Of a stretch of DNA of 64,000 nt, positions 1,894 through 60,248 are shown one piece after another. Under the pieces are notes generated by a model that was given only the letters and a program-made list of their open reading frames with translations, had not been told where the DNA came from and ran no database searches. Each line of letters opens with the position of its first letter. Position 1 is the first letter of the stretch. The stretch is from Escherichia coli. Its GTDB lineage: Bacteria; Pseudomonadota; Gammaproteobacteria; Enterobacterales; Enterobacteriaceae. The translations under genes and the position numbers were made by a program. The DNA lies in the NCBI RefSeq assembly GCF_046105845.1, contig NZ_CP151004.1; one strand, 5' to 3'.

Positions 1894-3486
1894 ATGGCTC
1901 GACTCTTTACCCCTTCAGAATCAAAGTACTACCTGATGGCGCTGGATGCAGGCACCGGAAGTATTCGGGCTGTGATATTCGACCTGGAAGGCAATCAAAT
2001 AGCAGTGGGACAGGCGGAGTGGCGGCACCTGGCAGTACCGGACGTTCCTGGTTCTATGGAGTTTGATCTCAACAAAAACTGGCAACTGGCGTGTGAGTGT
2101 ATGCGCCAGGCGCTTCACAACGCCGGCATAGCCCCGGAGTATATCGCTGCCGTTTCGGCATGTTCGATGCGCGAAGGCATTGTTTTATATAACAATGAAG
2201 GAACACCGATCTGGGCCTGCGCCAATGTGGATGCCAGAGCGGCGCGCGAAGTTAGCGAACTTAAAGAACTGCACAACAATACCTTTGAAAACGAAGTTTA
2301 TCGCGCCACCGGACAAACGCTGGCTTTAAGCGCTATTCCCAGATTACTTTGGCTGGCGCACCATCGTTCCGATATTTACCGTCAGGCATCAACCATCACC
2401 ATGATCAGCGACTGGCTGGCCTATATGCTCAGCGGCGAACTGGCGGTGGATCCCTCTAACGCTGGCACCACGGGACTTCTTGATCTAACCACCCGTGACT
2501 GGAAACCTGCATTGCTGGATATGGCCGGACTGCGGGCCGATATTCTTTCTCCTGTCAAAGAAACCGGCACATTGCTGGGCGTGGTAAGTTCACAAGCGGC
2601 GGAACTCTGCGGTCTGAAGGCGGGCACTCCGGTGGTCGTTGGAGGAGGCGACGTGCAACTTGGTTGCCTGGGGTTAGGCGTTGTGCGTCCGGCACAAACC
2701 GCTGTTCTTGGCGGCACATTCTGGCAGCAAGTTGTAAACTTAGCCGCGCCGGTGACAGACCCAGAAATGAACGTGCGCGTTAATCCTCATGTTATTCCTG
2801 GCATGGTACAAGCTGAATCTATAAGCTTTTTTACCGGACTCACCATGCGCTGGTTCCGCGATGCTTTCTGTGCCGAAGAAAAACTGATTGCCGAACGTTT
2901 AGGCATCGACACCTATACGCTGCTGGAAGAGATGGCAAGTCGGGTGCCGCCTGGGTCGTGGGGCGTAATGCCGATATTCTCCGACAGAATGCGCTTTAAA
3001 ACCTGGTATCACGCTGCGCCTTCCTTTATTAATTTGTCTATTGATCCGGATAAATGTAACAAAGCGACGTTGTTCCGTGCGCTGGAAGAAAATGCGGCGA
3101 TTGTATCAGCGTGTAACTTGCAGCAAATCGCTGATTTCTCGAATATTCATCCTTCATCGTTAGTCTTTGCAGGCGGAGGTTCAAAAGGGAAATTATGGAG
3201 TCAAATTCTCGCTGATGTCTCGGGATTACCCGTCAATATTCCAGTGGTCAAAGAAGCCACCGCATTAGGATGTGCCATTGCAGCTGGCGTCGGTGCCGGA
3301 ATTTTTTCATCAATGGCAGAAACCGGAGAACGCCTGGTTCGCTGGGAACGGACGCACACACCAGACCCGGAAAAGCATGAACTTTATCAGGATTCACGCG
3401 ATAAGTGGCAGGCAGTTTATCAGGATCAGCTGGGGCTGGTTGATCACGGGCTGACGACGTCGTTATGGAAAGCGCCTGGGTTATAG
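1894..3486 (+). CDS. lsrK: autoinducer-2 kinase LsrK (FGGY carbohydrate kinase family)
   Basis: 530-aa [33 protein letters not shown]...; matches K-12 LsrK; directly downstream of lsrR. Confidence 0.95.
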
Positions 3487-3493
3487 TTTCATT

Positions 3494-3531
3494 GACAGCC
3501 ACATCATGATGACCGTGGCTGTTAGTTTTTG
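3494..3531 (+). terminator. Rho-independent terminator after lsrK
   Basis: Hairpin ACAGCCAC-loop-GTGGCTGT followed by TTAGTTTTT. Confidence 0.6.
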
Positions 3532-4009
3532 AGTATTCTTATTTCCCTTCTTTTAGATCTGGTTTGTTAAATGCCAGCTTGCAGATTCATCGTTCCATCG
3601 CCAGTAATATATTCAAGGGGAAATTGCTATTTTTCTTAAAATATTAAGCATAACCCTTATTTTATAGCGAATATTCCTAAAGACATAAATGAATGAAAAA
3701 GAGTTTTAATAGAGTTCTTTTTTAGCAATTAATGCTATTCTTTGTTAAATATGATGATGGTAATTTTCTTATTGAAAGAAACATTTTTCTTATTAAGCAA
3801 CAATAACTCATGGTTCATTTTTAAATAAAATAAGAACTATGCAATTTTTAATCTATCAATTCGAAAGTATTAGCAAATGAGCCAAATTGACACCTTCCCA
3901 CCTCCAACCAACACTCAATACAGACCTCTGACAACTTAATAAGTTTCATTTTTAACGTCTGATGACTCATCTCTTTCGTGGCTGTATTGTTTGTATATGG
4001 AGCGTTTAT

Positions 4010-7000
4010 ATGAATAGAATCTATCGCGTGATATGGAATTGCACCCTACAGGTATTTCAGGCCTGCTCGGAATTAACTCGCAGGGTAGGTAAAACATCAA
4101 CGGTTAATTTGCGTAAATCCTCTGGACTGACAACGAAATTCAGTAGATTGACGCTGGGTGTTTTGCTGGCACTAAGCGGTTCAGCGTCTGGTGCGAGTCT
4201 GGAAGTTGATAATGATCAGATTATCAATATTGATACTGATGTTGCTTATGATGCCTACCTGGTTGGGTGGTATGGCACTGGAGTGCTTAATATTTTGGCT
4301 GGCGGTAATGCCTCCTTAACCACTATTACTACCAGCGTCATTGGTGGTAATGAGAACTCGAAGGGCACCGTTAATGTTTTGGGTGGCACCTGGCGATTGT
4401 ATGATAGCGGAAATAATGCAAGGCCTTTAAATGTGGGCCAATCCGGAACGGGGATGCTGAATATTAAACAGAAGGGGCACGTTGACGGAGGCTATTTAAG
4501 ATTAGGTACTCAAGCTGTAGGCGTCGGGATGGTTAATGTTGAGGGAGAGGACTCGGTTCTGACGACCGAATTATTCGAAATAGGGAGTTACGGTACAGGC
4601 TCATTAAATATTACGGATAAGGGTTACGTCACGAGTTCAATCGTCGCCATTGTAGGATATCAGGCGAACAGCACTGGTAAGGTTGTCGTTGAAAAGGGTG
4701 GCGAGTGGCTAATAAAAAATAATGATTCCTCAATTGAATTTCAAATTGGTAATCAAGGAACTGGGGAGGCGACTATTCGCGAGGGTGGACTGATTACGGC
4801 TGAAAATACGATTATCGGTGGCAATGCCACCGGTATCGGAACCCTGAATGTGCAGGATCAAGACTCTGTCATCACGGTACGCAGAGTCTATAATGGATAT
4901 TTCGGTAATGGCACAGTCAATATTTCCAATAATGGACTGATTAATAATAAAGAATATTCATTGGTGGGCGTTCAGGACGGGTCCCACGGTGTCGTCAACG
5001 TGACCAATAAAGGGCATTGGAATTTCCTCGGAACGGGCGAAGCTTTCCGCTATATCTATATCGGTGATGCTGGCGACGGTGAACTTAATGTCTCTAGTGA
5101 AGGCAAAGTAGATTCGGGAATTATCACTGCGGGGATGAAAGAAACAGGCACAGGCAACATTACTATTAAGGATAAGAACTCCATTATCACTAATCTCGGA
5201 ACTAATCTTGGTTATGACGGCCACGGCGAAATGAATATCAGTAATGAGGGGCTTGTTATCAGCAACGGAGGAAGCTCACTCGGTTATGGAGAAACCGGCG
5301 TCGGGAAGGTTAGCATCACCACGGGGGGGATGTGGGAGGTCAATAAGAATGTCTATACCACCATTGGTGTTGCGGGCGTCGGAAACCTCAATATCAGCGA
5401 TGGCGGTAAGTTCGTATCGCAAAATATTACTTTTTTGGGCGATAAAGCAAGCGGTATCGGCACACTGAACCTGATGGATGCGACATCATCGTTCGATACT
5501 GTAGGTATCAATGTCGGTAATTTTGGTAGCGGCATCGTAAATGTCAGTAATGGTGCCACCCTTAATTCAACGGGCTATGGATTTATCGGAGGAAATGCCT
5601 CCGGTAAGGGGATAGTTAATATTTCAACGGATAGTCTCTGGAATTTAAAAACGTCATCTACTAACGCCCAATTGTTACAGGTCGGTGTATTAGGCACGGG
5701 TGAACTGAATATTAGCACCGGAGGTATAGTTAAAGCGCGTGATACACAAATAGCTCTCAATGACAAAAGTAAGGGCGACGTGCGGGTGGATGGGCAGAAC
5801 TCTCTTCTTGAAACATTCAATATGAACGTAGGGACGACTGGCACAGGTACGTTAACCCTGACGAATAACGGTACGCTGAATGTCGAAGGTGGAGAAGTTT
5901 ACTTAGGTGTTTTTGCGCCTGCTGTAGGAACGCTAAACATTGGTGCTGCTCACGGTGAGGCGGCGGCAGATGCCGGATTTATCACCAATGCGACGAAAGT
6001 GGAGTTTGGTCTTGGCGAAGGCGTTTTTGTCTTTAATCATACCAATAACAGTGATGCCGGCTACCAGGTCGATATGCTGATTACGGGTGACGATAAAGAC
6101 GGAAAAGTGATGCATGATGCAGGCCATACGGTGTTCAATGCAGGGAATACTTATAGCGGTAAAACGTTGGTCAATGGCGGCCTCCTGACCATTGCGTCAC
6201 ATACGGCAGATGGGGTAACGGGCATGGGTTCGAGTGAAGTAACCATTGCAAACCCCGGTACGCTCGACATTCTCGCATCAACGAACAGTGCAGGAGATTA
6301 CACGCTGACCAATGCGCTCAAAGGCGATGGCTTGATGCGAGTGCAGCTGTCATCCTCCGACAAAATGTTTGGCTTTACCCATGCAACAGGAACTGAATTC
6401 GCCGGTGTTGCCCAACTGAAAGACAGTACCTTCACACTGGAACGCGACAACACCGCTGCGCTTACTCACGCGATGCTTCAGTCTGACAGTGAAAATACCA
6501 CATCGGTAAAAGTGGGAGAGCAATCCATTGGTGGACTAGCCATGAATGGCGGTACGCTCACTTTCGATACGGATATACCTGCTGCGACGCTCGCGGAGGG
6601 ATATATCAGCGTCGATACGCTGGTTGTCGGCGCGGGTGACTACACCTGGAAAGGCCGTAACTATCAGGTAAACGGGACGGGCGACGTGCTTATCGACGTG
6701 CCTAAACCGTGGAATGATCCCATGGCGAATAACCCTCTGACGACGCTCAATTTGCTGGAACACGATGATAGTCATGTCGGCGTTCAACTGGTGAAGGCGC
6801 AAACGGTTATTGGGTCGGGTGGCTCATTAACGTTACGTGATTTACAGGGCGACGAGGTGGAAGCGGACAAAACGTTACATATTGCACAAAACGGGACAGT
6901 GGTCGCCGAGGGTGATTATGGATTCCGCCTCACGACCGCTCCTGGTGATGGTTTGTATGTTAACTATGGGCTGAAAGCGCTGAACATCCATGGTGGGCAA

Positions 7001-9430
7001 AAGCTGACGTTAGCCGAACATGGCGGAGCCTATGGCGCAACGGCCGATATGTCGGCAAAAATCGGTGGTGAAGGGGATCTGGCAATCAATACGGTGCGAC
7101 AGGTTTCGCTTTCTAACGGTCAGAACGACTATCAGGGGGCAACCTACGTTCAGATGGGGACATTACGTACCGATGCGGATGGCGCTCTGGGCAATACTCG
7201 GGAACTGAACATCAGCAACGCGGCCATCGTCGATCTTAATGGATCGGAGCAGACGGTAGAGACATTCACCGGGCTGATGGGTTCGACTATTTTGTTCAAA
7301 GAAGGTTCGCTGACGGTGAATAAAGGTGGGATCAGTCAGGGCGAACTGACAGGTGGCGGAAACCTGAATGTTACAGGGGGAACACTGGCTATCGAGGGGC
7401 TTAATGCACGCTACAATGCGTTAACCAGCATTAGCCCAAATGCGGAAGTCAGCCTCGACAATACGCAGGGGTTAGGCAGAGGAAATATTGCCAATGACGG
7501 TCTGTTAACGCTAAAAAACGTGACCGGCAAACTGCGCAATAGCATAAGCGGTAAAGGTATCGTGAGCGCAACCGCCAGCACAGACGTAGAGCTGGATGGC
7601 GATAATAGCCGCTTTGTGGGGCAATTCAACATCGATGCAGGCAGCGCGCTCAGCGTCAACGAGCAGAAAAACCTGGGTGATGCTTCCGTTATCAATAATG
7701 GCCTGCTCACCATCGCCACTGAGCGTAGCTGGGCGATGACGCACAGTATCACCGGTAGCGGCGATGTGACAAAACTGGGGACCGGGATCCTGACTCTTAA
7801 CAACGATTCCGCGGCGTATCAGGGTACGACGGATATCGTGGGTGGTGAAATTGCTTTCGGTTCCGACTCTGCCATTAATATGGCAAGTCAGCACATTAAT
7901 ATCCATAACAGCGGTGTGATGTCGGGAAATGTCACCACTGCAGGTGATGTGAACGTTATGCCAGGGGGGACACTGCGTGTCGCTAAAACCACTGTCGGCG
8001 GTAACCTGGAGAATGGTGGCACGGTTCAAATGAACAGCGAAGGGGGGAAACCGGGGAATGTACTGACCGTTAACGGCAACTATACCGGAAACAATGGCCT
8101 GATGACGTTCAACGCGACGCTGGGTGGCGATAATTCGCCCACGGATAAAATGAACGTGAAAGGCGATACCCAAGGGAATACTCGCGTTCGGGTTGATAAC
8201 ATTGGCGGCGTCGGTGCACAAACGGTCAACGGTATTGAACTCATTGAGGTTGGCGGTAATTCTGCAGGTAAATTCGCGCTGACCACCGGAACTGTCGAAG
8301 CTGGGGCTTACGTCTACACGCTGGCTAAAGGGAAGGGGAATGACGAGAAAAACTGGTATCTGACCAGTAAATGGGACGGCGTAACGCCAGCGGATACACC
8401 CGATCCCATCAATAATCCCCCTGTTGTGGATCCGGAAGGCCCATCAGTTTATCGCCCGGAGGCCGGAAGCTATATCAGCAACATTGCCGCAGCCAACTCG
8501 CTGTTTAGCCATCGCTTACACGACCGTCTGGGTGAGCCGCAGTATACAGATTCACTGCATTCTCAGGGTTCGGCAAGCAGTATGTGGATGCGTCATGTCG
8601 GGGGGCACGAACGTTTCAGGACCGGTGACGGCCAGCTAAATATTCAGGCTAACCGCTATGTATTGCAGCTAGGAGGCGATTTGGCGCAGTGGAGTAGCAA
8701 CGCGCAGGATCGCTGGCATCTCGGCATCATGGCAGGCTATGCCAATCAGCACAGTAATACTCAGAGTAATCATGTGGGTTATAAATCGGATGGGCGCATC
8801 AGCGGTTACAGCGCAGGACTGTACGCGACCTGGTATCAGAACGATGCGAATAAGACCGGCGCTTATGTTGACAGCTGGGCGCTGTATAACTGGTTTGATA
8901 ACAGCGTCAGTTCCGATAACCGTTCTGCTGACGACTATGATTCTCGCGGTGTGACGGCCTCTGTTGAGGGGGGGTATACCTTTGAAGCGGGAACATTTAG
9001 CGGCAGCGAAGGGACGCTGAATACCTGGTACGTCCAGCCACAGGTACAAATCACCTGGATGGGTGTGAAAGATTCTGACCATACCCGGAAAGACGGAACA
9101 CGCATTGAAACGGAAGGCGACGGAAACGTGCAAACGCGACTTGGGGTGAAAACCTACCTGAACAGCCATCACCAGCGTGACGATGGTAAACAGCGTGAGT
9201 TCCAGCCTTACATTGAAGCGAACTGGATCAACAACAGCAAAGTCTACGCCGTGAAGATGAATGGTCAAACCGTAAGCCGTGATGGTGCGCGTAATCTCGG
9301 TGAAGTACGTACCGGGGTTGAGGCGAAAGTAAATAACAACCTTAGCCTGTGGGGGAATGTCGGTGTGCAACTAGGTGATAAAGGCTATAGCGATACTCAG
9401 GGCATGCTGGGAGTGAAATATATCTGGTAA
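4010..9430 (+). CDS. ydeK: Large type Va autotransporter adhesin (full length, 1806 aa) with extended signal peptide region, repetitive beta-helix passenger and C-terminal beta-barrel
   Basis: Start at MNRIYRVIWNCTLQVF (ESPR-like) with GGAG RBS 7 nt upstream; many GTGxLNI/GNASG passenger repeats; C-terminus ends ...LGVKYIW (aromatic terminal residue). Locus position between lsrK and hipB matches ydeK/yneO, which I recall as a pseudogene in K-12. Confidence 0.85.
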   Translation: MNRIYRVIWNCTLQVFQACSELTRRVGKTSTVNLRKSSGLTTKFSRLTLGVLLALSGSASGASLEVDNDQIINIDTDVAYDAYLVGWYGTGVLNILAGGNASLTTITTSVIGGNENSKGTVNVLGGTWRLYDSGNNARPLNVGQSGTGMLNIKQKGHVDGGYLRLGTQAVGVGMVNVEGEDSVLTTELFEIGSYGTGSLNITDKGYVTSSIVAIVGYQANSTGKVVVEKGGEWLIKNNDSSIEFQIGNQGTGEATIREGGLITAENTIIGGNATGIGTLNVQDQDSVITVRRVYNGYFGNGTVNISNNGLINNKEYSLVGVQDGSHGVVNVTNKGHWNFLGTGEAFRYIYIGDAGDGELNVSSEGKVDSGIITAGMKETGTGNITIKDKNSIITNLGTNLGYDGHGEMNISNEGLVISNGGSSLGYGETGVGKVSITTGGMWEVNKNVYTTIGVAGVGNLNISDGGKFVSQNITFLGDKASGIGTLNLMDATSSFDTVGINVGNFGSGIVNVSNGATLNSTGYGFIGGNASGKGIVNISTDSLWNLKTSSTNAQLLQVGVLGTGELNISTGGIVKARDTQIALNDKSKGDVRVDGQNSLLETFNMNVGTTGTGTLTLTNNGTLNVEGGEVYLGVFAPAVGTLNIGAAHGEAAADAGFITNATKVEFGLGEGVFVFNHTNNSDAGYQVDMLITGDDKDGKVMHDAGHTVFNAGNTYSGKTLVNGGLLTIASHTADGVTGMGSSEVTIANPGTLDILASTNSAGDYTLTNALKGDGLMRVQLSSSDKMFGFTHATGTEFAGVAQLKDSTFTLERDNTAALTHAMLQSDSENTTSVKVGEQSIGGLAMNGGTLTFDTDIPAATLAEGYISVDTLVVGAGDYTWKGRNYQVNGTGDVLIDVPKPWNDPMANNPLTTLNLLEHDDSHVGVQLVKAQTVIGSGGSLTLRDLQGDEVEADKTLHIAQNGTVVAEGDYGFRLTTAPGDGLYVNYGLKALNIHGGQKLTLAEHGGAYGATADMSAKIGGEGDLAINTVRQVSLSNGQNDYQGATYVQMGTLRTDADGALGNTRELNISNAAIVDLNGSEQTVETFTGLMGSTILFKEGSLTVNKGGISQGELTGGGNLNVTGGTLAIEGLNARYNALTSISPNAEVSLDNTQGLGRGNIANDGLLTLKNVTGKLRNSISGKGIVSATASTDVELDGDNSRFVGQFNIDAGSALSVNEQKNLGDASVINNGLLTIATERSWAMTHSITGSGDVTKLGTGILTLNNDSAAYQGTTDIVGGEIAFGSDSAINMASQHINIHNSGVMSGNVTTAGDVNVMPGGTLRVAKTTVGGNLENGGTVQMNSEGGKPGNVLTVNGNYTGNNGLMTFNATLGGDNSPTDKMNVKGDTQGNTRVRVDNIGGVGAQTVNGIELIEVGGNSAGKFALTTGTVEAGAYVYTLAKGKGNDEKNWYLTSKWDGVTPADTPDPINNPPVVDPEGPSVYRPEAGSYISNIAAANSLFSHRLHDRLGEPQYTDSLHSQGSASSMWMRHVGGHERFRTGDGQLNIQANRYVLQLGGDLAQWSSNAQDRWHLGIMAGYANQHSNTQSNHVGYKSDGRISGYSAGLYATWYQNDANKTGAYVDSWALYNWFDNSVSSDNRSADDYDSRGVTASVEGGYTFEAGTFSGSEGTLNTWYVQPQVQITWMGVKDSDHTRKDGTRIETEGDGNVQTRLGVKTYLNSHHQRDDGKQREFQPYIEANWINNSKVYAVKMNGQTVSRDGARNLGEVRTGVEAKVNNNLSLWGNVGVQLGDKGYSDTQGMLGVKYIW

Positions 9431-9437
9431 ACCTTAT

Positions 9438-9472
9438 AAGCCGCATGTCGAAGATGGCATGCGGCTTAATAT
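9438..9472 (+). terminator. Terminator-like hairpin after autotransporter gene
   Basis: AAGCCGCATG-loop-CATGCGGCTT inverted repeat directly after stop; weak U tract. Confidence 0.45.
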
Positions 9473-9506
9473 TGCCGACTTCAAACGACTTTTAAATCCT
9501 CCTTTT

Positions 9507-9620
9507 TATCCGCGATCGCGGATATCACAGCGTTTATCCCGTAGAGCGGATAAAATGTGTTTCCTGATTGACTTTATCCCCACTAAAGGATAAAACTGAT
9601 AATATCCCCTTGAGCGGATA
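9507..9620 (+). promoter_or_regulatory. hipBA promoter with four HipB operator sites TATCC-N8-GGATA
   Basis: Four exact TATCC-N8-GGATA palindromes at 9507-9524, 9535-9552, 9575-9592, 9603-9620, immediately upstream of hipB. Confidence 0.9.
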
Positions 9621-9641
9621 AATATGCTGTGGACGTATGAC

Positions 9642-9908
9642 ATGATGAGCTTTCAGAAGATCTATAGCCCAACGCAATTAGCGAATGCAATGAAACTGGT
9701 TCGTCAGCAAAATGGCTGGACGCAGAGCGAGCTGGCGAAAAAAATCGGTATTAAGCAGGCGACAATTTCCAATTTCGAAAACAACCCTGACAATACCACG
9801 CTCACGACATTTTTTAAGATTTTACAGTCGCTTGAACTCTCAATGACGCTATGCGACACGAAAAATGCCTCGCCAGAATCAACAGAACAGCAAGATCTGG
9901 AGTGGTAA
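9642..9908 (+). CDS. hipB: HipB antitoxin (Xre-family HTH)
   Basis: 88-aa product MMSFQKIYSPTQLANAMKLVRQQNGWTQSELAKKIGIKQATISNFENNPDNTTL...; matches K-12 HipB; stop overlaps hipA start (TAATG). Confidence 0.95.
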   Translation: MMSFQKIYSPTQLANAMKLVRQQNGWTQSELAKKIGIKQATISNFENNPDNTTLTTFFKILQSLELSMTLCDTKNASPESTEQQDLEW

Positions 9909-11230
9909 TGCCTAAACTTGTCACTTGGATGAACAACCAGCGGGTAGGCGAGTTAACGAAGTTAGCCAATGGCGCGCACACCTTTAAGTATGCACCGGAG
10001 TGGTTAGCTAACCGTTATGCCAGACCGTTGTCACTTTCGCTGCCATTGCAGAGGGGGAATATCACCTCTGATGCCGTATTTAACTTCTTCGATAACCTGT
10101 TACCCGATAGCCCGATTGTACGTGACCGGATCGTTAAACGTTATCATGCCAAATCCAGACAACCGTTTGATTTATTGTCAGAAATAGGGCGAGACAGCGT
10201 TGGTGCCGTGACGTTAATACCCGAAGACGAAACCGTAACGCATCCGATAATGGCATGGGAAAAGCTTACTGAAGCCAGACTTGAAGAAGTATTAACGGCT
10301 TATAAAGCAGATATCCCTCTGGGCATGATTAGAGAAGAAAATGACTTTCGCATCTCGGTTGCTGGCGCGCAGGAGAAGACAGCGCTGCTCAGAATAGGCA
10401 ATGACTGGTGCATTCCGAAAGGAATAACGCCGACGACGCACATCATTAAATTACCGATTGGCGAAATCAGGCAGCCCAATGCGACGCTCGATCTCAGCCA
10501 AAGCGTTGATAATGAGTATTACTGTCTGCTGCTGGCGAAAGAACTTGGGTTGAATGTTCCGGACGCAGAAATCATTAAAGCGGGAAGGGTGCGCGCGTTA
10601 GCGGTCGAACGTTTTGACAGGCGTTGGAATGCTGAGCGAACGGTTTTACTTCGCTTGCCACAGGAGGATATGTGTCAGACATTCGGTTTACCTTTATCGG
10701 TGAAATATGAATCAGATGGAGGCCCAGGCATCGCGCGGATCATGGCTTTTTTGATGGGGTCCAGCGAGGCGCTGAAAGATCGCTATGATTTTATGAAGTT
10801 TCAGGTGTTCCAGTGGTTGATTGGCGCAACGGATGGCCATGCAAAAAACTTCTCCGTATTTATTCAGGCTGGCGGCAGTTATCGACTCACGCCATTTTAC
10901 GACATCATTTCAGCATTTCCGGTATTGGGTGGCGCAGGAATACACATCAGCGATCTCAAACTGGCAATGGGGCTTAACGCATCCAAAGGCAAAAAAACGG
11001 CAATCGATAAAATTTATCCGCGACATTTTCTGGCGACAGCAAAGGTGCTGAAATTTCCGGAAGTGCAGATGCATGAAATCCTGAGTGACTTTGCCAGAAT
11101 GATTCCGGCAGCACTGGATAACGTGAAGACTTCATTACCGACAGATTTTCCGGAGAACGTGGTGACGGCAGTTGAAACAAATGTGTTGAGGTTGCACCGT
11201 CGGTTAAGCCGAGAATACGGTATTAAGTAA
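9908..11230 (+). CDS. hipA: HipA serine/threonine kinase toxin
   Basis: 440-aa product MPKLVTWMNNQRVGELTKLANGAHTFKYAPEWL...; matches K-12 HipA. Residue 22 is Gly (not the hipA7 G22S allele). Confidence 0.95.
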   Translation: MPKLVTWMNNQRVGELTKLANGAHTFKYAPEWLANRYARPLSLSLPLQRGNITSDAVFNFFDNLLPDSPIVRDRIVKRYHAKSRQPFDLLSEIGRDSVGAVTLIPEDETVTHPIMAWEKLTEARLEEVLTAYKADIPLGMIREENDFRISVAGAQEKTALLRIGNDWCIPKGITPTTHIIKLPIGEIRQPNATLDLSQSVDNEYYCLLLAKELGLNVPDAEIIKAGRVRALAVERFDRRWNAERTVLLRLPQEDMCQTFGLPLSVKYESDGGPGIARIMAFLMGSSEALKDRYDFMKFQVFQWLIGATDGHAKNFSVFIQAGGSYRLTPFYDIISAFPVLGGAGIHISDLKLAMGLNASKGKKTAIDKIYPRHFLATAKVLKFPEVQMHEILSDFARMIPAALDNVKTSLPTDFPENVVTAVETNVLRLHRRLSREYGIK

Positions 11231-11510: not shown

Positions 11511-11765
11511 GTGCAAATGAACACCCCCTCTTTCCATCAACACTTCAGACAGCTTGCGGGAATGAGTCCACTCCGGTATCAGAAATGGCTACGCCTCAAT
11601 GAAGCCAGGCGACTGATGCTGAATGAACATTACGATGTCACCACTGCAGCCTATGCTGTCGGTTACGAAAGCTTATCCCATTTCAGTCGGGAATATTCGC
11701 GGATGTTTGGAGAGTCACCTAAGAGAGATATTACCGGGTTAAGAAAGTCTGTCGGTCAGCTTTAA
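11511..11765 (+). pseudogene. yneL: AraC-family regulator C-terminal HTH fragment (remnant)
   Basis: 84-aa ORF containing only an AraC-type HTH tail (…LRYQKWLRLNEARRLMLNEHYDVTTAAYAVGYESLSHFSREYSRMFGESP…); no N-terminal domain; position matches K-12 yneL pseudogene. Confidence 0.7.
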
Positions 11766-12199
11766 TAAACCCTGCACTTATCTGTTTAGAGCAATTCCGT
11801 GTTAGTTACACCAGTCAAACATTAACCATAGCTAATGTTTTATAGCCATATAAACCATTGGCCGCTCTTGACCTTTCCTGACACTTCCCTTGTTCGCAAT
11901 AATATTCTGTTTAGTCGCTGTTTATAAATAACATGCATAATGAAATCGTAATGTTATTTAGCGACATAAAATGTCTTTGCAAATACTCTCTACAACAAGT
12001 GCTGCAATAAACTTGTTGTGATTAGGTGTCCTTGTAATTTAAAGATATTATCGTTCTTCGTGAAATGTAATAACCCTGGAAACTATATTCTCAGGGCAAT
12101 ATCCCATCAAGAATGATTCTTGTTTTATAAGCAATAACAGAATTACTTAATTGTTAACTTTCTTTATTCAGCTACTTAAATATAAATTTTGGAGAATTA

Positions 12200-12762
12200 T
12201 GAAACTCAAACATGTCGGTATGATTGTCGTTTCTGTGTTGGCGATGTCGTCTGCTGCGGTAAGCGCAGCCGAGGGTGATGAATCAGTAACGACCACTGTT
12301 AATGGCGGTGTTATTCATTTTAAAGGTGAAGTGGTAAATGCCGCTTGTGCGATTGATTCAGAATCAATGAACCAAACGGTTGAGCTGGGTCAGGTCCGTT
12401 CTTCTCGTCTGGCTAAAGCGGGTGACCTCAGCTCCGCCGTTGGCTTCAATATCAAGCTGAATGATTGTGATACCAATGTTTCCAGTAATGCAGCTGTTGC
12501 ATTCCTGGGTACTACTGTCACCAGTAATGACGATACCTTAGCGCTGCAGAGTTCAGCGGCAGGCTCTGCCCAAAATGTCGGTATTCAAATTTTGGACCGT
12601 ACGGGGGAGGTATTAATACTTGATGGTGCCACTTTTAGCGCTAAAACCGACTTGATTGATGGCACGAATATACTGCCATTCCAGGCTCGTTATATTGCTC
12701 TCGGGCAGTCAGTAGCTGGTACTGCAAACGCTGATGCGACCTTCAAAGTTCAATATCTATAA
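12200..12762 (+). CDS. Fimbrial major subunit (type 1/F9-like pilin)
   Basis: Start at [23 protein letters not shown] (signal peptide); Cys pair and C-terminal ...TFKVQYL beta-strand typical of chaperone-usher pilins; first gene of a six-gene cluster. Confidence 0.85.
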
Positions 12763-12803
12763 TTCAATCTTAAGGTGGCTATACGTCATCTGAAATTGAA
12801 ACA

Positions 12804-12832
12804 GGGTGTGTGTGGCATGGCTACGCACACCC
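12804..12832 (+). other. 12-bp stem-loop in the pilin-chaperone intergenic region (possible intra-operon attenuator / mRNA stabiliser)
   Basis: GGGTGTGTGTGG-CATGG-CTACGCACACCC read directly; no U tract follows. Confidence 0.35.
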
Positions 12833-13122
12833 GAGCAATTCACCAATGTGAATCTCATTATTAATGAGGAGTGGTTTGTATTTGGAGCACTATGAAAAAT
12901 CACATAATATCTAAACGTTCAATAAACAACAGTAGTTAAACTTACTGTTATTTAAAATATTTACTTTGTAGCAAGGTTTTCCTGTTAAAAGAGAACCAAC
13001 ATTTATTACAAACGCATTAAGTCTGGAAACCCAGCGAGTCGCCGATGTATTAGCAACATTTACCGATTGTCTGATGTAACGGTTTCCCCGCTTATCCTCT
13101 TAACACATGGAGAATGCATCAG

Positions 13123-13833
13123 ATGCAAACTACGCGTACCCCCTACTCTGTTTCCTTTATGGCGACAGTGTTACTTTTATTGGTCTTTGCTTGCCATAGC
13201 ACCATTGCCAACGCAGCTGTCGCACTGGGTGCGACGCGGGTAATTTATCCGGCAAACCAGAAACAGGTTTTATTGCCTGTCACGAATAATGATCCTGCCA
13301 GTGTCTATCTCATTCAGTCATGGATAGAAAATGCAGGTGACCAAAAAGACACCCAGTTTGTCATTACCCCACCGCTTTTTTCCATGCAAGGTAAAAAAGA
13401 GAATACGCTGCGGATAATCAACGCCACTAATCATCAGTTACCAGGCGACCGTGAAAGCCTGTTCTGGGTGAATGTTAAAGCTATTCCTGCTATGGAAAAA
13501 GACCAGAAGAATGAGAATACATTACAGCTGGCAATTATTAGCCGCATAAAAATGTTTTATCGCCCCACGAACCTGGCAATGGCACCTGAAGAAGCGCCTG
13601 CAATGCTTCGGTTTCGTCGCAGCGGTAGCAAACTCACTCTTATTAATCCAACGCCCTACTTCATTACCGTAACAAATATGAAAGCAGGAAATAGCAATCT
13701 CCCAAACACCATGGTGCCGCCAAAAGGTGAAGTATCGGTGGATATCCCGCATGCTGCAACCGGGGATATCAGTTTTCAGACGATCAATGATTACGGTGCA
13801 TTAACTCCGCGTATTAAGGCAACCATGCAGTAA
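13123..13833 (+). CDS. Periplasmic fimbrial chaperone (PapD/FimC family)
   Basis: Signal peptide then ...RVIYPANQKQVLLPVTNNDPASVYLIQSWIE...; typical chaperone N-terminal motif. Start could be 13114 or 13123. Confidence 0.85.
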   Translation: MQTTRTPYSVSFMATVLLLLVFACHSTIANAAVALGATRVIYPANQKQVLLPVTNNDPASVYLIQSWIENAGDQKDTQFVITPPLFSMQGKKENTLRIINATNHQLPGDRESLFWVNVKAIPAMEKDQKNENTLQLAIISRIKMFYRPTNLAMAPEEAPAMLRFRRSGSKLTLINPTPYFITVTNMKAGNSNLPNTMVPPKGEVSVDIPHAATGDISFQTINDYGALTPRIKATMQ

Positions 13834-13874
13834 GCCAGTGACCTAATTAATAATAAACTCAATCGGAATTAAAA

Positions 13875-16526
13875 ATGACAGCCTTTCGTGCCGCATTTAA
13901 GGCATATCGTATGCATCAGGTGTTACTACTGCCTCGCTTTGCACGGCTTACCATTGCCCTTGGCTTAGCAACTGCGGTATTTCCCGTTGACGCAGAGTAT
14001 TATTTTAATCCACGGTTTTTAAGCAATGATCTTGCTGAATCTGTCGATTTATCCGCCTTTACTAAGGGACGCGAGGCACCACCTGGTACATATCGGGTCG
14101 ACATTTATTTGAACGACGAATTTATGACTAGTCGGGATATTACTTTTATTGCAGATGATAATAACGCAGATCTCATCCCATGCCTGAGTACAGATCTTCT
14201 TGTCAGTCTTGGCATAAAAAAATCAGCGTTATTAGACAATAAAGAACATTCGGCAGAAAAACATGTGCCGGACAACAGCACATGCACACCACTTCAGGAT
14301 CGTTTGGCTGACGCATCATCTGAGTTTGATGTTGGTCAGCAACATCTGTCACTCTCCGTTCCGCAAATTTATGTTGGCAGAATGGCTCGCGGCTATGTTT
14401 CTCCGGATCTGTGGGAAGAAGGAATAAATGCTGGGCTACTAAACTATAGTTTTAATGGTAATTCTATTAATAATCATAGTAACCATAATGCAGGAAAATC
14501 CAACTATGCATATTTGAATTTACAGAGTGGCATCAACATTGGTAGTTGGCGACTGCGTGATAACTCAACGTGGAGTTATAACAGTGGGAGTAGCAATTCA
14601 TCTGACAGCAATAAATGGCAGCATATCAATACGTCGGCTGAACGTGACATTATTCCCTTACGCTCACGGTTAACGGTGGGTGATAGTTATACCGATGGCG
14701 ATATTTTTGATAGTGTGAACTTTCGTGGCCTCAAAATAAATTCAACAGAAGCGATGTTGCCCGATAGCCAACATGGTTTCGCTCCGGTGATTCATGGTAT
14801 TGCCCGTGGCACAGCACAAGTGAGTGTAAAACAGAATGGATACGATGTTTATCAGACTACTGTTCCACCCGGCCCTTTTACTATTGATGATATCAACTCT
14901 GCGGCCAATGGTGGTGATCTGCAAGTAACCATAAAAGAGGCAGACGGCAGTATTCAGACATTATATGTTCCTTATTCGTCTGTTCCGGTTCTCCAACGTG
15001 CTGGATATACGCGTTATGCGCTTGCCATGGGGGAATATCGTAGTGGAAATAACCTGCAAAGCTCCCCCAAGTTCATACAAGGTAGCTTGATGCATGGACT
15101 GGAAGGAAACTGGACACCTTATGGCGGAATGCAAATTGCAGAAGATTATCAGGCCTTCAACCTTGGTATTGGTAAAGATTTAGGACTTTTTGGTGCCTTT
15201 TCTTTCGATATCACGCAGGCCAATACGACACTTGCAGATGGCACCCGTCACAGCGGGCAATCGATTAAATCCGTCTACAGCAAATCCTTCTACCAGACGG
15301 GAACCAATATCCAGGTCGCAGGATATCGCTATTCTACGCAAGGTTTTTATAACTTATCCGACAGTGCCTACAGTCGAATGAGTGGTTACACCGTCAAGCC
15401 TCCTACCGGAGACAGCAATGAGCAGACACAATTTATTGATTATTTTAATCTGTTCTACAGTAAGCGTGGTCAGGAACAAATAAGCATCTCTCAGCAGCTT
15501 GGAAATTACGGTACGACATTTTTCAGTGCCAGTCGCCAAAGTTACTGGAACACGTCACGCAGCGACCAGCAAATATCATTTGGATTAAATGTGCCGTTTG
15601 GCGATATTACAACTTCGCTGAATTACAGCTATTCCAATAATATATGGCAAAACGATCGGGATCATTTACTTGCTTTTACGCTTAATGTTCCCTTCAGTCA
15701 TTGGATGCGTACAGACAGTCAGTCGGCATTTCGTAATTCAAACGCCAGTTACAGTATGTCAAACGATTTGAAAGGCGGCATGACCAATCTATCAGGGGTT
15801 TATGGCACTCTGCTGCCGGATAATAACCTGAATTATAGCGTTCAGGTAGGTAACACCCACGGAGGTAATACATCGTCTGCCACCAGTGGTTACAGTTCTC
15901 TTAATTATCGTGGAGCTTACGGTAATACTAATGTCGGTTACAGTCGGAGTGGGGACAGCAGCCAGATTTATTACGGAATGAGTGGTGGGATTATTGCTCA
16001 TGCTGATGGCATCACCTTTGGTCAGCCGCTGGGCGACACAATGGTTCTGGTTAAGGCTCCTGGCGCTGATAATGTCAAAATAGAGAACCAGACCGGAATT
16101 CATACCGACTGGCGTGGCTATGCCATATTACCATTTGCGACAGAATATAGAGAAAATCGTGTCGCTCTTAACGCGAATTCCCTTGCAGATAATGTTGAAC
16201 TGGATGAAACCGTGGTCACTGTCATCCCAACTCACGGTGCTATTGCCAGAGCAACATTTAATGCACAAATCGGCGGGAAAGTATTAATGACGTTGAAGTA
16301 CGGTAATAAGAGCGTTCCATTCGGTGCAATTGTCACTCACGGAGAGAATAAAAATGGCAGCATTGTCGCGGAAAACGGTCAGGTTTATCTGACTGGACTT
16401 CCACGGTCAGGGAAATTACAGGTTTCATGGGGCAATGATAAAAACTCAAACTGTATAGTCGATTACAAGCTTCCTGAAGTCACTCCTGGAACCTTACTGA
16501 ACCAGCAGACAGCAATCTGTCGCTAA
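13875..16526 (+). CDS. ydeT: Fimbrial outer-membrane usher (full length, 883 aa)
   Basis: Length and sequence features of PapC/FimD ushers (…YFNPRFL…, C-terminal Cys pair …NSNCIVDYKLPEV…TAICR). Position corresponds to ydeT, which I recall as truncated in K-12. Confidence 0.85.
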   Translation: MTAFRAAFKAYRMHQVLLLPRFARLTIALGLATAVFPVDAEYYFNPRFLSNDLAESVDLSAFTKGREAPPGTYRVDIYLNDEFMTSRDITFIADDNNADLIPCLSTDLLVSLGIKKSALLDNKEHSAEKHVPDNSTCTPLQDRLADASSEFDVGQQHLSLSVPQIYVGRMARGYVSPDLWEEGINAGLLNYSFNGNSINNHSNHNAGKSNYAYLNLQSGINIGSWRLRDNSTWSYNSGSSNSSDSNKWQHINTSAERDIIPLRSRLTVGDSYTDGDIFDSVNFRGLKINSTEAMLPDSQHGFAPVIHGIARGTAQVSVKQNGYDVYQTTVPPGPFTIDDINSAANGGDLQVTIKEADGSIQTLYVPYSSVPVLQRAGYTRYALAMGEYRSGNNLQSSPKFIQGSLMHGLEGNWTPYGGMQIAEDYQAFNLGIGKDLGLFGAFSFDITQANTTLADGTRHSGQSIKSVYSKSFYQTGTNIQVAGYRYSTQGFYNLSDSAYSRMSGYTVKPPTGDSNEQTQFIDYFNLFYSKRGQEQISISQQLGNYGTTFFSASRQSYWNTSRSDQQISFGLNVPFGDITTSLNYSYSNNIWQNDRDHLLAFTLNVPFSHWMRTDSQSAFRNSNASYSMSNDLKGGMTNLSGVYGTLLPDNNLNYSVQVGNTHGGNTSSATSGYSSLNYRGAYGNTNVGYSRSGDSSQIYYGMSGGIIAHADGITFGQPLGDTMVLVKAPGADNVKIENQTGIHTDWRGYAILPFATEYRENRVALNANSLADNVELDETVVTVIPTHGAIARATFNAQIGGKVLMTLKYGNKSVPFGAIVTHGENKNGSIVAENGQVYLTGLPRSGKLQVSWGNDKNSNCIVDYKLPEVTPGTLLNQQTAICR

Positions 16527-16539
16527 GGAACAATAGATT

Positions 16540-17070
16540 ATGAAATACAATAACGTTATTTTCCTCGGTTTATGTCTGGGGTTAACCACCTATTCTGCTT
16601 TATCCGCAGATAGCGTTATTAAAATTAGCGGGCGCGTCCTCGATTATGGCTGCACAGTCTCATCGGATTCGCTTAATTTTACCGTAGATCTCCAAAAAAA
16701 CAGTGCCAGACAATTTCCAACGACCGGTAGCACAAGTCCAGCCGTCCCTTTTCAGATTACGTTAAGTGAATGCAGCAAAGGGACAACGGGGGTTCGAGTT
16801 GCATTTAACGGGATTGAGGATGCAGAAAATAATACTCTGTTGAAACTGGATGAAGGAAGCAATACAGCCTCCGGTTTGGGTATAGAAATACTGGACGGAA
16901 ATATGCGTCCGGTGAAATTGAATGACCTTCATGCCGGGATGCAGTGGATCCCACTGGTACCAGAACAGAACAATATTTTGCCTTACTCCGCTCGTCTGAA
17001 GTCAACTCAGAAGTCCGTCAATCCGGGACTGGTGAGGGCTTCGGCAACCTTTACCCTTGAATTTCAATAA
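16540..17070 (+). CDS. ydeS: Fimbrial minor subunit
   Basis: 176-aa pilin-like protein with signal peptide and Cys pair; gene order matches K-12 ydeS. Confidence 0.8.
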   Translation: MKYNNVIFLGLCLGLTTYSALSADSVIKISGRVLDYGCTVSSDSLNFTVDLQKNSARQFPTTGSTSPAVPFQITLSECSKGTTGVRVAFNGIEDAENNTLLKLDEGSNTASGLGIEILDGNMRPVKLNDLHAGMQWIPLVPEQNNILPYSARLKSTQKSVNPGLVRASATFTLEFQ

Positions 17071-17082
17071 TCAGAGTCAGAT

Positions 17083-17586
17083 ATGAAAAGACTTCACAAG
17101 AGGTTCCTGTTAGCTACGTTTTGCGCGTTATTCACAGCAACTCTCCAGGCCGCCGATGTCACTATCACTGTTAATGGTCGGGTAGTCGCTAAACCCTGCA
17201 CTATTCAAACCAAAGAAGCTAACGTTAATCTCGGGGATCTTTATACACGCAATCTGCAACAACCTGGCTCTGCATCTGGCTGGCACAATATTACTTTGTC
17301 ATTAACCGATTGTCCGGTTGAAACAAGTGCAGTGACGGCAATCGTGACAGGTTCAACTGACAATACGGGTTATTACAAAAATGAAGGTAGTGCCGAAAAT
17401 ATTCAGATAGAGCTGAGGGACGACCAGGATGCTGCGTTAAAAAATGGCGATAGCAAAACGGTTATTGTTGATGAGATCACTCGTAATGCACAGTTTCCAC
17501 TTAAGGCAAGAGCTATCACGGTGAATGGAAACGCAAGCCAGGGAACGATCGAGGCTCTAATCAATGTGATCTACACCTGGCAATAA
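17083..17586 (+). CDS. ydeR: Fimbrial minor subunit
   Basis: 167-aa pilin-like protein with signal peptide; gene order matches K-12 ydeR. Confidence 0.8.
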   Translation: MKRLHKRFLLATFCALFTATLQAADVTITVNGRVVAKPCTIQTKEANVNLGDLYTRNLQQPGSASGWHNITLSLTDCPVETSAVTAIVTGSTDNTGYYKNEGSAENIQIELRDDQDAALKNGDSKTVIVDEITRNAQFPLKARAITVNGNASQGTIEALINVIYTWQ

Positions 17587-17645
17587 CGTCGATTCGATTT
17601 TCTTAGCCTCCTTTTTAAATCAATTTTTTAACCTTAGGATATATC

Positions 17646-60118: not shown

Positions 60119-60248
60119 ATTTAAGTGCTGCTGTATGACTCCTTAAGTAAAAATGAGCAATTTTTGATATTTCTGGTCATTCACCTCAATTAATATTATT
60201 CCATACCCTCCGGGGACATCTTACTATAATATTTATTGATGAGTGATT

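What the first reader, a model, noticed from the sequence alone, without database searches (positions are those of the whole stretch)
4010..9430. Full-length 1806-aa autotransporter at a locus I recall as a pseudogene in K-12
A single uninterrupted ORF with ESPR-like extended signal peptide, long repetitive passenger and C-terminal beta-barrel occupies the ydeK/yneO position. It is preceded by about 480 bp of very AT-rich DNA (3540-3960) typical of H-NS-silenced promoters. The strain therefore may express a large surface adhesin that the laboratory strain lacks.
Basis: partly seen in the sequence, partly recalled or inferred. Interest (0 to 1): 0.45.

Follow-up and report, generated by a model that had tools for sequence, protein, structure and literature searches.

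The report
Intact YneO/ECSE_1600 autotransporter gene
This is an undamaged copy of a large E. coli surface-protein gene that laboratory strain K-12 carries only as a frameshifted pseudogene; about a third of sequenced E. coli also have it intact, the contrast with K-12 was published in 2008, and the finding is therefore real but ordinary.

Summary
Window 4010-9430 (+) is one uninterrupted 1806-aa ORF. It has an ESPR signal peptide, a beta-helical passenger, an autochaperone domain and a complete C-terminal beta-barrel. It lies between lsrK and hipB, which is the K-12 yneO (ydeK/ydeU) position. K-12 differs by 174 substitutions and one extra G in a poly-G run (G6-A here, G7 in K-12's nearest relatives, G8 in K-12), which stops translation at codon 1326.

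None of this is new. The protein matches NCBIfam NF011422 "ECSE_1600 family autotransporter" end to end (1-1806/1806). The exact sequence is already in GenBank. The SE11 genome paper (2008) tabulated this gene as intact in SE11 and HS, truncated in MG1655, E24377A and O157 Sakai, and absent from B2 strains. In a systematic sample of 40 complete genomes, 13 copies were intact, 19 were broken by unrelated lesions and 8 were absent.

The AT-rich spacer (GC 28.7%) is orthologous to a published K-12 "promoter island" that binds H-NS, and to a MarA ChIP-seq site in ETEC H10407. This lineage carries a T>C change in the last base of the predicted -10 hexamer, so expression is doubtful. Adhesin function has never been tested for this family. 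Interest is low.

The parts
3492..3530 (+). Terminator-like hairpin directly after the lsrK stop codon: a 12-bp stem followed by UAGUUUUU. It suggests the autotransporter gene is its own transcription unit.
   Evidence: RNA fold -18.1 kcal/mol, z = -4.55, 0 of 200 shuffles fold as well. Coordinates.
3487..4009 (+). 523-bp AT-rich intergenic spacer (GC 30.8%; 28.7% for 3540-3960). It is orthologous to the K-12 ydeK/lsrK 'promoter island', which binds RNA polymerase and H-NS.
   Evidence: Composition. Three-way alignment with K-12 and PCN033: mean column identity 97%. H-NS and RpoD/RpoS binding of the K-12 orthologue from PMC3661553, PMC3946193 and PMC5493296.
3721..3735 (-). Marbox GCATTAATTGCTAAA, a MarA/SoxS/Rob-type site 275 bp upstream of the start codon.
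   Evidence: Single match in the window, 0.01 expected by chance. The orthologous site gcactaattgctaaa gave a MarA ChIP-seq peak in ETEC H10407 and bound purified MarA at 0.3 uM. The exact variant found here equals the verified grxA<>ybjC marbox (PMC5684230 Table 1).
3928..3956 (+). Predicted sigma-70 promoter: CTGACA (3928-3933), 17-nt spacer, TTTAAC (3951-3956). The other 13 alleles examined have TTTAAT. Three lineage-specific transitions lie at 3935, 3956 and 3963.
   Evidence: Promoter CTGACA-17-TTTAAT was predicted inside an RpoD holoenzyme SELEX peak for K-12 yneO (PMC3946193). Allele comparison. Coordinates.
3999..4002 (+). Shine-Dalgarno GGAG, 7 nt before the ATG at 4010.
   Evidence: Sequence read directly. 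Invariant in the three-way alignment.
4010..9430 (+). Complete CDS of the ECSE_1600-family (YneO/YdeK-YdeU) type Va autotransporter, 1806 aa plus TAA.
   Evidence: NCBIfam NF011422 matches 1-1806/1806 at 4106 bits against a cutoff of 2335. The exact protein is in GenBank as EHK3780532.1 and others.
4010..4195 (+). Extended signal peptide. ESPR covers aa 1-47, followed by a hydrophobic core LTLGVLLAL. Signal-peptidase cleavage near aa 60-62 is inferred. The only two cysteines (C11, C19) lie here and there is no lipobox.
   Evidence: Pfam PF13018 E 3.6e-14. Sequence read.
4274..5944 (+). N-terminal passenger module, aa 89-645: about 23 degenerate ~25-aa repeats (G-x-G-x-[LV]-N-[IV]) predicted as a right-handed beta-helix. 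GC is lower (46%) than in the rest of the gene.
   Evidence: TIGR04393 T5SS/PEP-CTERM repeat, 8 stretches. Motif count. AlphaFold2 pLDDT mostly above 90 over this part. Foldseek best hits Ag43 4KH3 (E 5.5e-7), 7KO9, and TibA 4Q1Q. GC.
5945..8002 (+). C-terminal part of the passenger, aa 646-1331. It is mostly beta, but the model is low confidence for aa ~655-1055. It contains one PATR repeat at aa 1253-1281.
   Evidence: No PDB sequence hit for aa 55-1330 at E<=1.
7964..7969 (+). G6 run followed by A. This is the site that is G7 in phylogroup-A-type alleles and G8 (the frameshift) in K-12.
8003..8323 (+). Autochaperone domain (AC_1 / pertactin-like), aa 1332-1438.
   Evidence: PF18883 E 4.5e-26 and PF03212. 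IcsA autochaperone structures 3ML3 and 5KE1.
8324..8581 (+). Pro-rich junction and presumed pore-spanning alpha-helical linker, aa 1439-1524.
   Evidence: Covered by the alignment to the AIDA-I translocation unit 4MEE (query 1345-1805, E 2.2e-86). Sequence read. The helix itself is inferred.
8582..9427 (+). Beta-barrel translocator, aa 1525-1806, ending ...GVKYIW.
   Evidence: PF03797 1-254/255, E 1.4e-41. TIGR01414. 4MEE.
9437..9468 (+). 13-bp GC-rich hairpin 7 nt after the stop codon, with no clear U-run. Presumed 3' end or stabiliser of the transcript.
   Evidence: RNA fold -24.5 kcal/mol, z = -3.18. Coordinates.

Best explanation
Window 4010-9430 encodes an intact orthologue of the E. coli chromosomal autotransporter known as ECSE_1600 in strain SE11. 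In K-12 it is the split pseudogene yneO (ydeK + ydeU).

Shown here:
- The ORF is complete and matches the 1806-position family model end to end.
- It sits in the ancestral lsrK-[AT]-hipBA position.
- It has every module of a classical (type Va) autotransporter.
- Intact alleles evolve under purifying selection (dN/dS about 0.15).
- The gene has been inactivated many times independently in E. coli. K-12's lesion is a one-base expansion of a G7 run.

Inferred from established knowledge of type Va secretion:
- The ESPR signal peptide directs Sec export.
- The C-terminal 12-stranded barrel is inserted by BAM.
- The passenger is threaded out C-terminus first and folds on the autochaperone into a long right-handed beta-helix displayed on the cell surface.
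- By structural analogy with Ag43 and TibA, it most likely mediates adhesion or cell-cell aggregation.

Inferred from published K-12 and ETEC data on the orthologous spacer:
- Transcription starts in a 523-bp AT-rich spacer that is loaded with RNA polymerase but silenced by H-NS.
- The spacer carries a high-affinity MarA site, so the gene is probably cryptic under laboratory conditions.
- In this particular lineage the predicted -10 hexamer has lost its final T, which may weaken expression further.
For: ORF and modules.

Family membership: NF011422, 4106 bits against a cutoff of 2335, 1-1806/1806. The exact sequence is deposited as 'ECSE_1600 family autotransporter'.

Synteny and K-12 lesion.

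Published precedent: PMC2608844 Table 4.

Prevalence and independent lesions: 13 intact, 19 broken and 8 absent in a systematic sample of 40.

Selection: dN/dS 0.14-0.18, against 0.02-0.04 for lsrK.

Beta-helix: AF2 pLDDT above 90 for aa ~65-645. Foldseek hits to Ag43 and TibA with E from 5.5e-7 to 9e-4.

Regulation: H-NS, RpoD, RpoS and MarA binding of the orthologous spacer. The marbox is conserved here. The -10 variant is seen.

Separate transcription unit: hairpins.
Against: - No experiment on expression, surface display or adhesion exists for this protein or any family member that I could find.
- The promoter is only a best-match prediction inside a SELEX peak. The simple promoter scan found nothing in the spacer.
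- The middle of the passenger (aa ~655-1055) is modelled with low confidence. The passenger has no sequence-detectable relative of known structure.
- Frequent independent loss of the gene shows that it is dispensable in many niches.
- The prevalence estimate rests on 40 genomes. Six of them were judged from the hit table alone, and some frameshifts may be long-read homopolymer errors.
Confidence: 0.85

Rival explanations
1. The ORF is intact but the gene is effectively dead in this lineage. The T>C change at the last base of the -10 hexamer, on top of H-NS silencing, abolishes transcription. On this view the locus is at an early, regulatory stage of the same decay seen elsewhere.
For: Three transitions unique to this lineage (3935, 3956, 3963) fall within 29 bp of a core-promoter segment that is nearly invariant in 13 other alleles from diverse lineages. 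One converts TTTAAT to TTTAAC. They recur in independent public contigs, so they are real. The K-12 orthologous spacer is described as near-silent (PMC3661553).
Against: The promoter assignment is a prediction only, and other start points are possible in a 'promoter island'. The coding sequence shows no relaxation: dN/dS against the nearest allele PCN033 is 0.17, much like other pairs. The marbox and Shine-Dalgarno are intact.
Confidence: 0.25
2. The passenger is not an adhesin. It might instead serve only as a self-aggregation or biofilm factor, a binding target for phage or colicin, or a carrier of an unrecognised activity in the poorly modelled middle region.
For: No adhesion data exist. 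The passenger has no sequence relative of known function. aa ~655-1055 are modelled with low confidence. The best structural matches, Ag43 and TibA, are primarily self-associating proteins.
Against: There are no hits to protease, lipase or other enzyme families in Pfam or NCBIfam and none to defence-system models. The composition (Gly/Thr/Asn-rich, no Cys in the mature protein) and repeat pattern are typical of beta-helical adhesin passengers.
Confidence: 0.15
3. The gene is phase-variable through slippage of the poly-G run, so the 'intact versus pseudogene' states are reversible ON/OFF states rather than decay.
For: The K-12 lesion is exactly a G7 to G8 expansion, and its nearest relatives have G7 and are intact.
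Against: In this window and in most lineages the run is only G6 interrupted by A. Of the 13 fetched broken copies, only two (MG1655 and the K-12 laboratory derivative KMS2005) are broken at this run. All others carry unrelated lesions: IS1, IS903B, deletions of 5 to 247 bp, an 8-bp insertion, and nonsense codons.
Confidence: 0.04
4. The uninterrupted ORF is an assembly or sequencing artefact.
For: None specific. Homopolymer errors are common in long-read assemblies.
Against: Public contigs from independent samples (L018-L020) match window 3310-10130 with 0-1 differences, and about 20 contigs carry the exact protein.
Confidence: 0.01

Closest known systems
ECSE_1600 of E. coli SE11 (NCBIfam NF011422), equivalent to the K-12 pseudogene yneO (formerly ydeK b1510 + ydeU b1509)
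   Same: Same length (1806 aa) and an end-to-end model match. Same locus between lsrK and hipB. About 97% amino-acid identity to the two large public clusters.
   Different: Only allelic differences: 54 amino-acid changes against a repaired K-12 sequence and 32 against PCN033. It is intact, whereas K-12 has G8 and a stop at codon 1326. There are lineage-specific promoter changes.
AIDA-I (E. coli diffuse-adherence adhesin; structure 4MEE)
   Same: The autochaperone, linker and barrel are homologous (query 1345-1805, E 2.2e-86; NF033176 356 bits over aa 1298-1804). Both are type Va with a beta-helical passenger.
   Different: It scores far below the AIDA-I family cutoff (356 against 1200 bits). 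The passenger is unrelated in sequence. There are no 19-aa AIDA repeats (Pfam PF16168 not hit). No adjacent heptosyltransferase gene is present; the neighbours are lsrK and hipB.
Antigen 43 and TibA (self-associating autotransporters; 4KH3, 7KO9, 7KOH, 7KOB, 4Q1Q)
   Same: They are the best structural matches to the predicted N-terminal passenger beta-helix (Foldseek E 5.5e-7 to 9e-4, probability 0.98-1.00 over those six hits).
   Different: Identity is only 12-16% and TM-scores are low. The repeat period is ~25 aa rather than 19. The passenger is more than twice as long. No Dam/OxyR phase-switch elements were looked for or seen. Self-association is untested.
Salmonella MisL and ShdA (fibronectin-binding autotransporters)
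   Same: Strongest NCBIfam cross-hits in the translocator region: MisL 463 bits with best stretch aa 1480-1805, ShdA 209 bits.
   Different: Both are well below the equivalog cutoffs (1297 and 2249 bits), and the similarity is confined to the C-terminal third.
Other cryptic, H-NS-silenced E. coli surface factors (for example K-12 chaperone-usher fimbriae and the autotransporter UpaC, from my own knowledge)
   Same: An AT-rich upstream region that binds H-NS in K-12. The gene is silent in the laboratory and variably decayed among strains.
   Different: De-repression in an hns mutant has not been reported for this gene in anything I could search.

Membership tests
Classical (type Va) autotransporter | N-terminal Sec signal peptide (here the extended ESPR type) | tested here: met
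   PF13018 at aa 1-47, E 3.6e-14. A hydrophobic core and small-residue cleavage region follow.
Classical (type Va) autotransporter | C-terminal 12-stranded beta-barrel translocator, complete to the terminal aromatic residue | tested here: met
   PF03797 1-254/255, E 1.4e-41. TIGR01414 2-432/432. 4MEE E 2.2e-86. The protein ends ...KYIW.
Classical (type Va) autotransporter | Beta-helical passenger with an autochaperone at its C-terminal end | tested here: met
   PF18883 E 4.5e-26. The AF2 model is confident for aa ~65-645. Foldseek hits to the Ag43 and TibA beta-helices. The middle of the passenger is low confidence.
Classical (type Va) autotransporter | Actual secretion and surface display of the passenger | not testable with these tools
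   Needs fractionation, protease shaving or immunofluorescence.
ECSE_1600 family (NCBIfam NF011422) | Whole-protein score above the curated cutoff, with full-length coverage | tested here: met
   4106.1 bits against a cutoff of 2335, 1-1806/1806.
ECSE_1600 family (NCBIfam NF011422) | Chromosomal position between lsrK and hipBA in E. coli | tested here: met
   In more divergent Escherichia-like genomes the hipBA side is kept but the other side is a molybdo-dehydrogenase cluster.
AIDA-I / self-associating autotransporters (AIDA-I, Ag43, TibA) | Passenger built of ~19-aa imperfect AIDA-type repeats | tested here: not met
   Pfam AIDA repeat PF16168 was not reported at E<=0.001. The repeat spacing observed is ~25 aa.
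AIDA-I / self-associating autotransporters (AIDA-I, Ag43, TibA) | Score above the AIDA-I family cutoff | tested here: not met
   NF033176 gives 356.5 bits against a cutoff of 1200, over the C-terminal part only.
AIDA-I / self-associating autotransporters (AIDA-I, Ag43, TibA) | Adjacent heptosyltransferase gene (aah or tibC), as for AIDA-I and TibA | tested here: not met
   The neighbours are lsrK and hipB. No ORF lies in the spacers.
AIDA-I / self-associating autotransporters (AIDA-I, Ag43, TibA) | Self-association leading to aggregation or biofilm | not testable with these tools
   Only structural resemblance is available.
H-NS-silenced promoter / 'promoter island' | Markedly AT-rich upstream DNA | tested here: met
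   GC 28.7% for 3540-3960, the lowest in the window.
H-NS-silenced promoter / 'promoter island' | H-NS occupancy and de-repression in an hns mutant | not testable with these tools
   Occupancy is published for the K-12 orthologous spacer (ChIP-chip 'all studies' in PMC3661553; SELEX in PMC3946193). De-repression is not reported. Nothing is known for this strain.
mar/sox/rob regulon member | Marbox that binds MarA | tested here: met
   The sequence GCATTAATTGCTAAA is present at 3721-3735 on the minus strand. Binding was shown by others, for the orthologous ETEC site and for this exact 15-mer at grxA<>ybjC (PMC5684230).
mar/sox/rob regulon member | MarA-dependent change in transcription of the gene | not tested
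   Not reported in the paper read. The ETEC H10407 copy is itself a pseudogene with a 220-bp deletion.

The most novel reading that the evidence does not exclude
The conserved high-affinity MarA site in an otherwise H-NS-silenced spacer could mean that this large beta-helical surface protein is a stress-inducible aggregation or adhesion factor. On this reading it is switched on by the mar/sox/rob response to antibiotics, salicylate or oxidants, next to the hipBA persistence module. That would link drug stress to a protective aggregated lifestyle in the roughly one third of E. coli that keep the gene intact.
Probability: 0.08. Interest if true: 0.5.

Novelty: already known. Interest (0 to 1): 0.1.

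Why it matters
It matters little beyond correct annotation. It is a reminder that K-12 under-represents the surface-protein repertoire of natural E. coli. The same window also holds an intact fimbrial operon and a porin at sites where K-12 has remnants.

This autotransporter is widespread, under purifying selection where intact, repeatedly lost, and still functionally uncharacterised. The only new points here are descriptive:
- the K-12 lesion is a G7 to G8 slip, with intact G7 alleles in K-12's closest relatives;
- roughly 33% of copies are intact, 48% broken and 20% absent in a sample of 40 genomes;
- this lineage carries a -10 hexamer variant.

The published but unexplored MarA site is the one lead that could make the locus interesting.

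Tried and rejected
- **PDB sequence search, passenger alone (aa 55-1330) at E<=1:** no hit. The fold had to come from a prediction.
- **Tandem Repeats Finder on 3400-9700:** nothing. The 'repetitive' passenger has no DNA-level repeats, so repeat slippage is unlikely.
- **PADLOC defence models:** no hit.
- **Simple sigma-70 and terminator scan:** no promoter called in the spacer and fewer sites than in shuffles. It is uninformative in such AT-rich DNA, and its loop limit missed the lsrK hairpin later found by folding.
- **Rfam:** nothing in or near the gene.
- **Literature searches for a functional study** under ydeK, ydeU, yneO, ECSE_1600 or '1806 aa': only genome-scale tables turned up.
- **Lipoprotein annotation** ('putative lipoprotein YdeK'): rejected. 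The only cysteines are C11 and C19 inside the ESPR motif and there is no lipobox.
- **Upstream ATG at 3962 as start:** rejected. It is created by a lineage-specific C>T change.
- **Poly-G phase variation:** rejected for this allele (G6-A), and most lesions lie elsewhere.
- **Not run:** I did not use the large representative-protein search or a second structure job. Neither could change the verdict.
Full report

Yes. The ORF listing and translate show a single open frame on the + strand. From the ATG at 4010 to the TAA at 9428-9430 it encodes 1806 aa with no internal stop.

The longest ORF formally begins at an ATG at 3962 (1822 aa). That codon is ACG in 10 of the 13 other alleles I compared, K-12 included, and GCG in two. 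The conserved Shine-Dalgarno GGAG (3999-4002) and the ESPR motif MNRIYRVIWN both point to 4010.

Pfam finds ESPR (aa 1-47, E 3.6e-14), autochaperone AC_1 (1332-1438), Pertactin, one PATR repeat, and a complete Autotransporter beta-domain (1525-1784, profile positions 1-254 of 255).

The 421 bp at 3540-3960 have GC 28.7%, against a window median of 47.5%. They include the lowest-GC stretch of the whole 64 kb.

The flanking genes are lsrR, lsrK, hipB and hipA, which is the K-12 yneO neighbourhood.

**2. K-12 comparison**

In K-12 MG1655 the orthologous CDS is annotated 'ECSE_1600 family autotransporter, frameshifted' and is 5422 nt long. A global alignment gives 174 substitutions and a single extra base.

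The indel lies in a poly-G run. The window reads CCAGGGGGGACACTG (G6 then A, 7964-7969) and K-12 reads CCTGGGGGGGGCACTG (G8). The K-12 frame stops at codon 1326, which reproduces the historical ydeK/ydeU split.

K-12's closest alleles (strains MARGA_4, cM8a, T16R) have G7 and are intact. The K-12 lesion is therefore a recent one-base expansion. Consistent with that, the 'repaired' K-12 sequence shows the same dN/dS as intact alleles.

K-12 is not intact, and there is no missed frameshift here.

**3. What it is**

NCBIfam NF011422 'ECSE_1600 family autotransporter' is a 1806-position model. The protein matches it 1-1806 at 4106 bits against a cutoff of 2335.

The exact amino-acid sequence is already in public databases under that name (EHK3780532.1, HAX4634578.1 and others; about 20 contigs). 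Three independent contigs match window 3310-10130 with 0-1 differences. The allele is therefore real and belongs to a sampled lineage, although no complete RefSeq genome exceeds 98.3% identity across this locus.

The C-terminal third is homologous to the solved AIDA-I translocation unit (4MEE, E 2.2e-86) and to IcsA autochaperone structures.

The passenger (aa 55-1330) has no sequence-detectable relative in the PDB. It does carry about 23 degenerate ~25-aa repeats with the motif G-x-G-x-[LV]-N-[IV] between aa 89 and 645. These are recognised as T5SS/PEP-CTERM-associated repeats.

An AlphaFold2 model of aa 55-1254 is confident (pLDDT mostly above 90) for aa ~65-645. It shows short beta-strands in a regular three-per-turn pattern. 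aa ~655-1055 are low confidence.

Foldseek against the PDB puts Ag43 (4KH3, E 5.5e-7; 7KO9; 7KOH; 7KOB) and TibA (4Q1Q) first. These are the beta-helices of self-associating autotransporters.

The mature protein contains no cysteine and is rich in Gly, Thr and Asn. The older name 'lipoprotein YdeK' is unfounded, because there is no lipobox.

**4. How it most likely works**

The module set is shown here. The following steps are inferred from the established type Va pathway:
- Sec export is directed by the ESPR signal peptide.
- BAM inserts the barrel into the outer membrane.
- The passenger is secreted C-terminus first and folds on the autochaperone into a surface-exposed beta-helix.

By analogy, the passenger probably serves adhesion or cell-cell aggregation. 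This last step is untested for any family member I could find. AIDA-I/SAAT membership fails on repeat type, family score and the missing glycosyltransferase neighbour.

**5. Regulation**

A strong hairpin with a U-run follows lsrK (3492-3530, z = -4.55). Another hairpin follows the autotransporter stop (9437-9468). The gene is probably monocistronic.

All published regulatory data concern the orthologous spacer of K-12 or ETEC:
- It is one of 78 'promoter islands' that bind RNA polymerase yet are almost silent, with H-NS occupancy 'according to all studies' (PMC3661553).
- Genomic SELEX found RpoD and RpoS holoenzyme binding and an H-NS site, and predicted the promoter CTGACA-17-TTTAAT (PMC3946193 and PMC5493296).
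- MarA ChIP-seq in ETEC H10407 found a peak at this gene with marbox gcactaattgctaaa, which bound purified MarA at 0.3 uM (PMC5684230).

The window keeps a marbox at 3721-3735 on the minus strand. Its sequence, GCATTAATTGCTAAA, is identical to the verified grxA<>ybjC site.

The window's core promoter, however, carries three transitions found in none of 13 other alleles. One of them changes TTTAAT to TTTAAC (3951-3956). If that promoter is the real one, this lineage expresses the gene less than others, not more.

**6. Population picture**

5340 of 5426 complete E. coli genomes have some match to the locus, and 3952 have at least 80% of it.

I checked all 40 rows of the evenly spaced hit list. 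I fetched and translated 34 of them and judged six from the hit table alone:

| State | Count | Share |
|---|---|---|
| Intact | 13 | 32.5% |
| Present but broken | 19 | 47.5% |
| Absent | 8 | 20% |

The absent group is B2-type. In Nissle 1917, for example, tam abuts hipB.

The lesions are unrelated to one another:
- G8 in K-12 derivatives
- +1 G at gene nt 1314
- a 2-nt and a 5-nt deletion near nt 3820-3834
- an 8-bp insertion at nt 3984 in O157-type strains
- a 247-bp deletion in an O145 strain and a 220-bp deletion in H10407
- nonsense codons at aa 198 and aa 322
- IS1 and IS903B insertions
- 3' deletions that reach hipB

Intact alleles show dN/dS of 0.14-0.18, against 0.02-0.04 for lsrK. 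The gene is maintained by selection where it is kept and is repeatedly lost elsewhere.

Orthologues of 1806 aa and 83-86% identity (86% by BLASTP, 83% in the alignment) sit next to hipBA in more divergent Escherichia-like genomes. They also have an AT-rich upstream spacer (GC 33-34%).

**7. Novelty**

The SE11 genome paper (Oshima et al. 2008, PMC2608844, Table 4) already lists ECSE_1600 as 1806 aa. It records the gene as intact in SE11 and HS, truncated in MG1655, E24377A and O157 Sakai, and absent in CFT073, UTI89 and 536. The family has a curated NCBI model and the exact protein is deposited.

The finding is therefore correct but already known. The small additions here are the G7 to G8 origin of the K-12 lesion, a rough census, and the lineage-specific -10 variant. 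The unexplored MarA site is the only lead of wider interest, and it is speculative.

**8. Verdict**

- Observation: confirmed.
- Interpretation: partly supported. Coding capacity and the H-NS context hold, but expression and adhesin function remain unproven, and the gene is not distinctive for this strain.
- Novelty: already known.
- Interest: about 0.1.

Noticed in passing
window 12151-18560 (+): A complete chaperone-usher fimbrial operon: FimA-like major subunit (12151-12762), chaperone (13114-13833), intact 883-aa usher (13875-16526) and three further subunit genes. At this position K-12 has only a truncated usher (ydeT) plus ydeS/R/Q. This is a second surface-structure locus that is intact here and decayed in K-12.
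   Followed up: partly
window 58979-60079 (+): An intact 366-aa OmpC/OmpN-like general porin (NF007841, 495 bits, just above the cutoff of 484), preceded by AT-rich DNA. From memory, K-12 has porin-like remnants (yddL) in this area. I did not check that.
   Followed up: no
window 60243-61508 and 61550-62827 (+): Two adjacent ~420-aa proteins with weak leucine-rich-repeat hits (SlrP and internalin LRR regions) in DNA of only ~31-34% GC. This may be horizontally acquired, H-NS-type DNA.
   Followed up: no
window 56967-57025 (-): A SECIS_3 element (84 bits) at the junction of two minus-strand ORFs (57020-57607 and 54560-56971). This fits a selenocysteine UGA in a formate dehydrogenase (fdnG-like) gene rather than a pseudogene.
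   Followed up: partly
window 9507-9620 (+): Four TATCC-N8-GGATA palindromes between the autotransporter hairpin and hipB. These are the classical HipB operator sites. hipBA itself is intact here (hipB 9642-9908) but is deleted or truncated in several genomes where the autotransporter is also damaged, including the O157 type, strain 042 and PCN033.
   Followed up: partly
window 3935, 3956, 3963: Three transitions cluster within 29 bp of a core-promoter segment that is otherwise nearly invariant across 13 alleles from diverse lineages. The same three changes occur in independent public contigs of this lineage.
   Followed up: partly
window 4010-6109 versus 6110-9430: There is a GC step inside the gene: 46.0% for the first 2.1 kb (signal peptide and repeat module) against 52.6% for the rest. 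This hints at a mosaic origin of the passenger.
   Followed up: no
window 9400-34000, and the locus as a whole: No complete RefSeq E. coli genome exceeds 98.8% identity over 24.6 kb of neighbouring core DNA, or 98.3% over the autotransporter locus. The strain therefore belongs to a lineage poorly represented among complete genomes.
   Followed up: no
window 11511-11765 (+): An 84-aa ORF matches only the C-terminal helix-turn-helix part of AraC-family regulators, like the truncated yneL-type fragment annotated in K-12 and PCN033.
   Followed up: no
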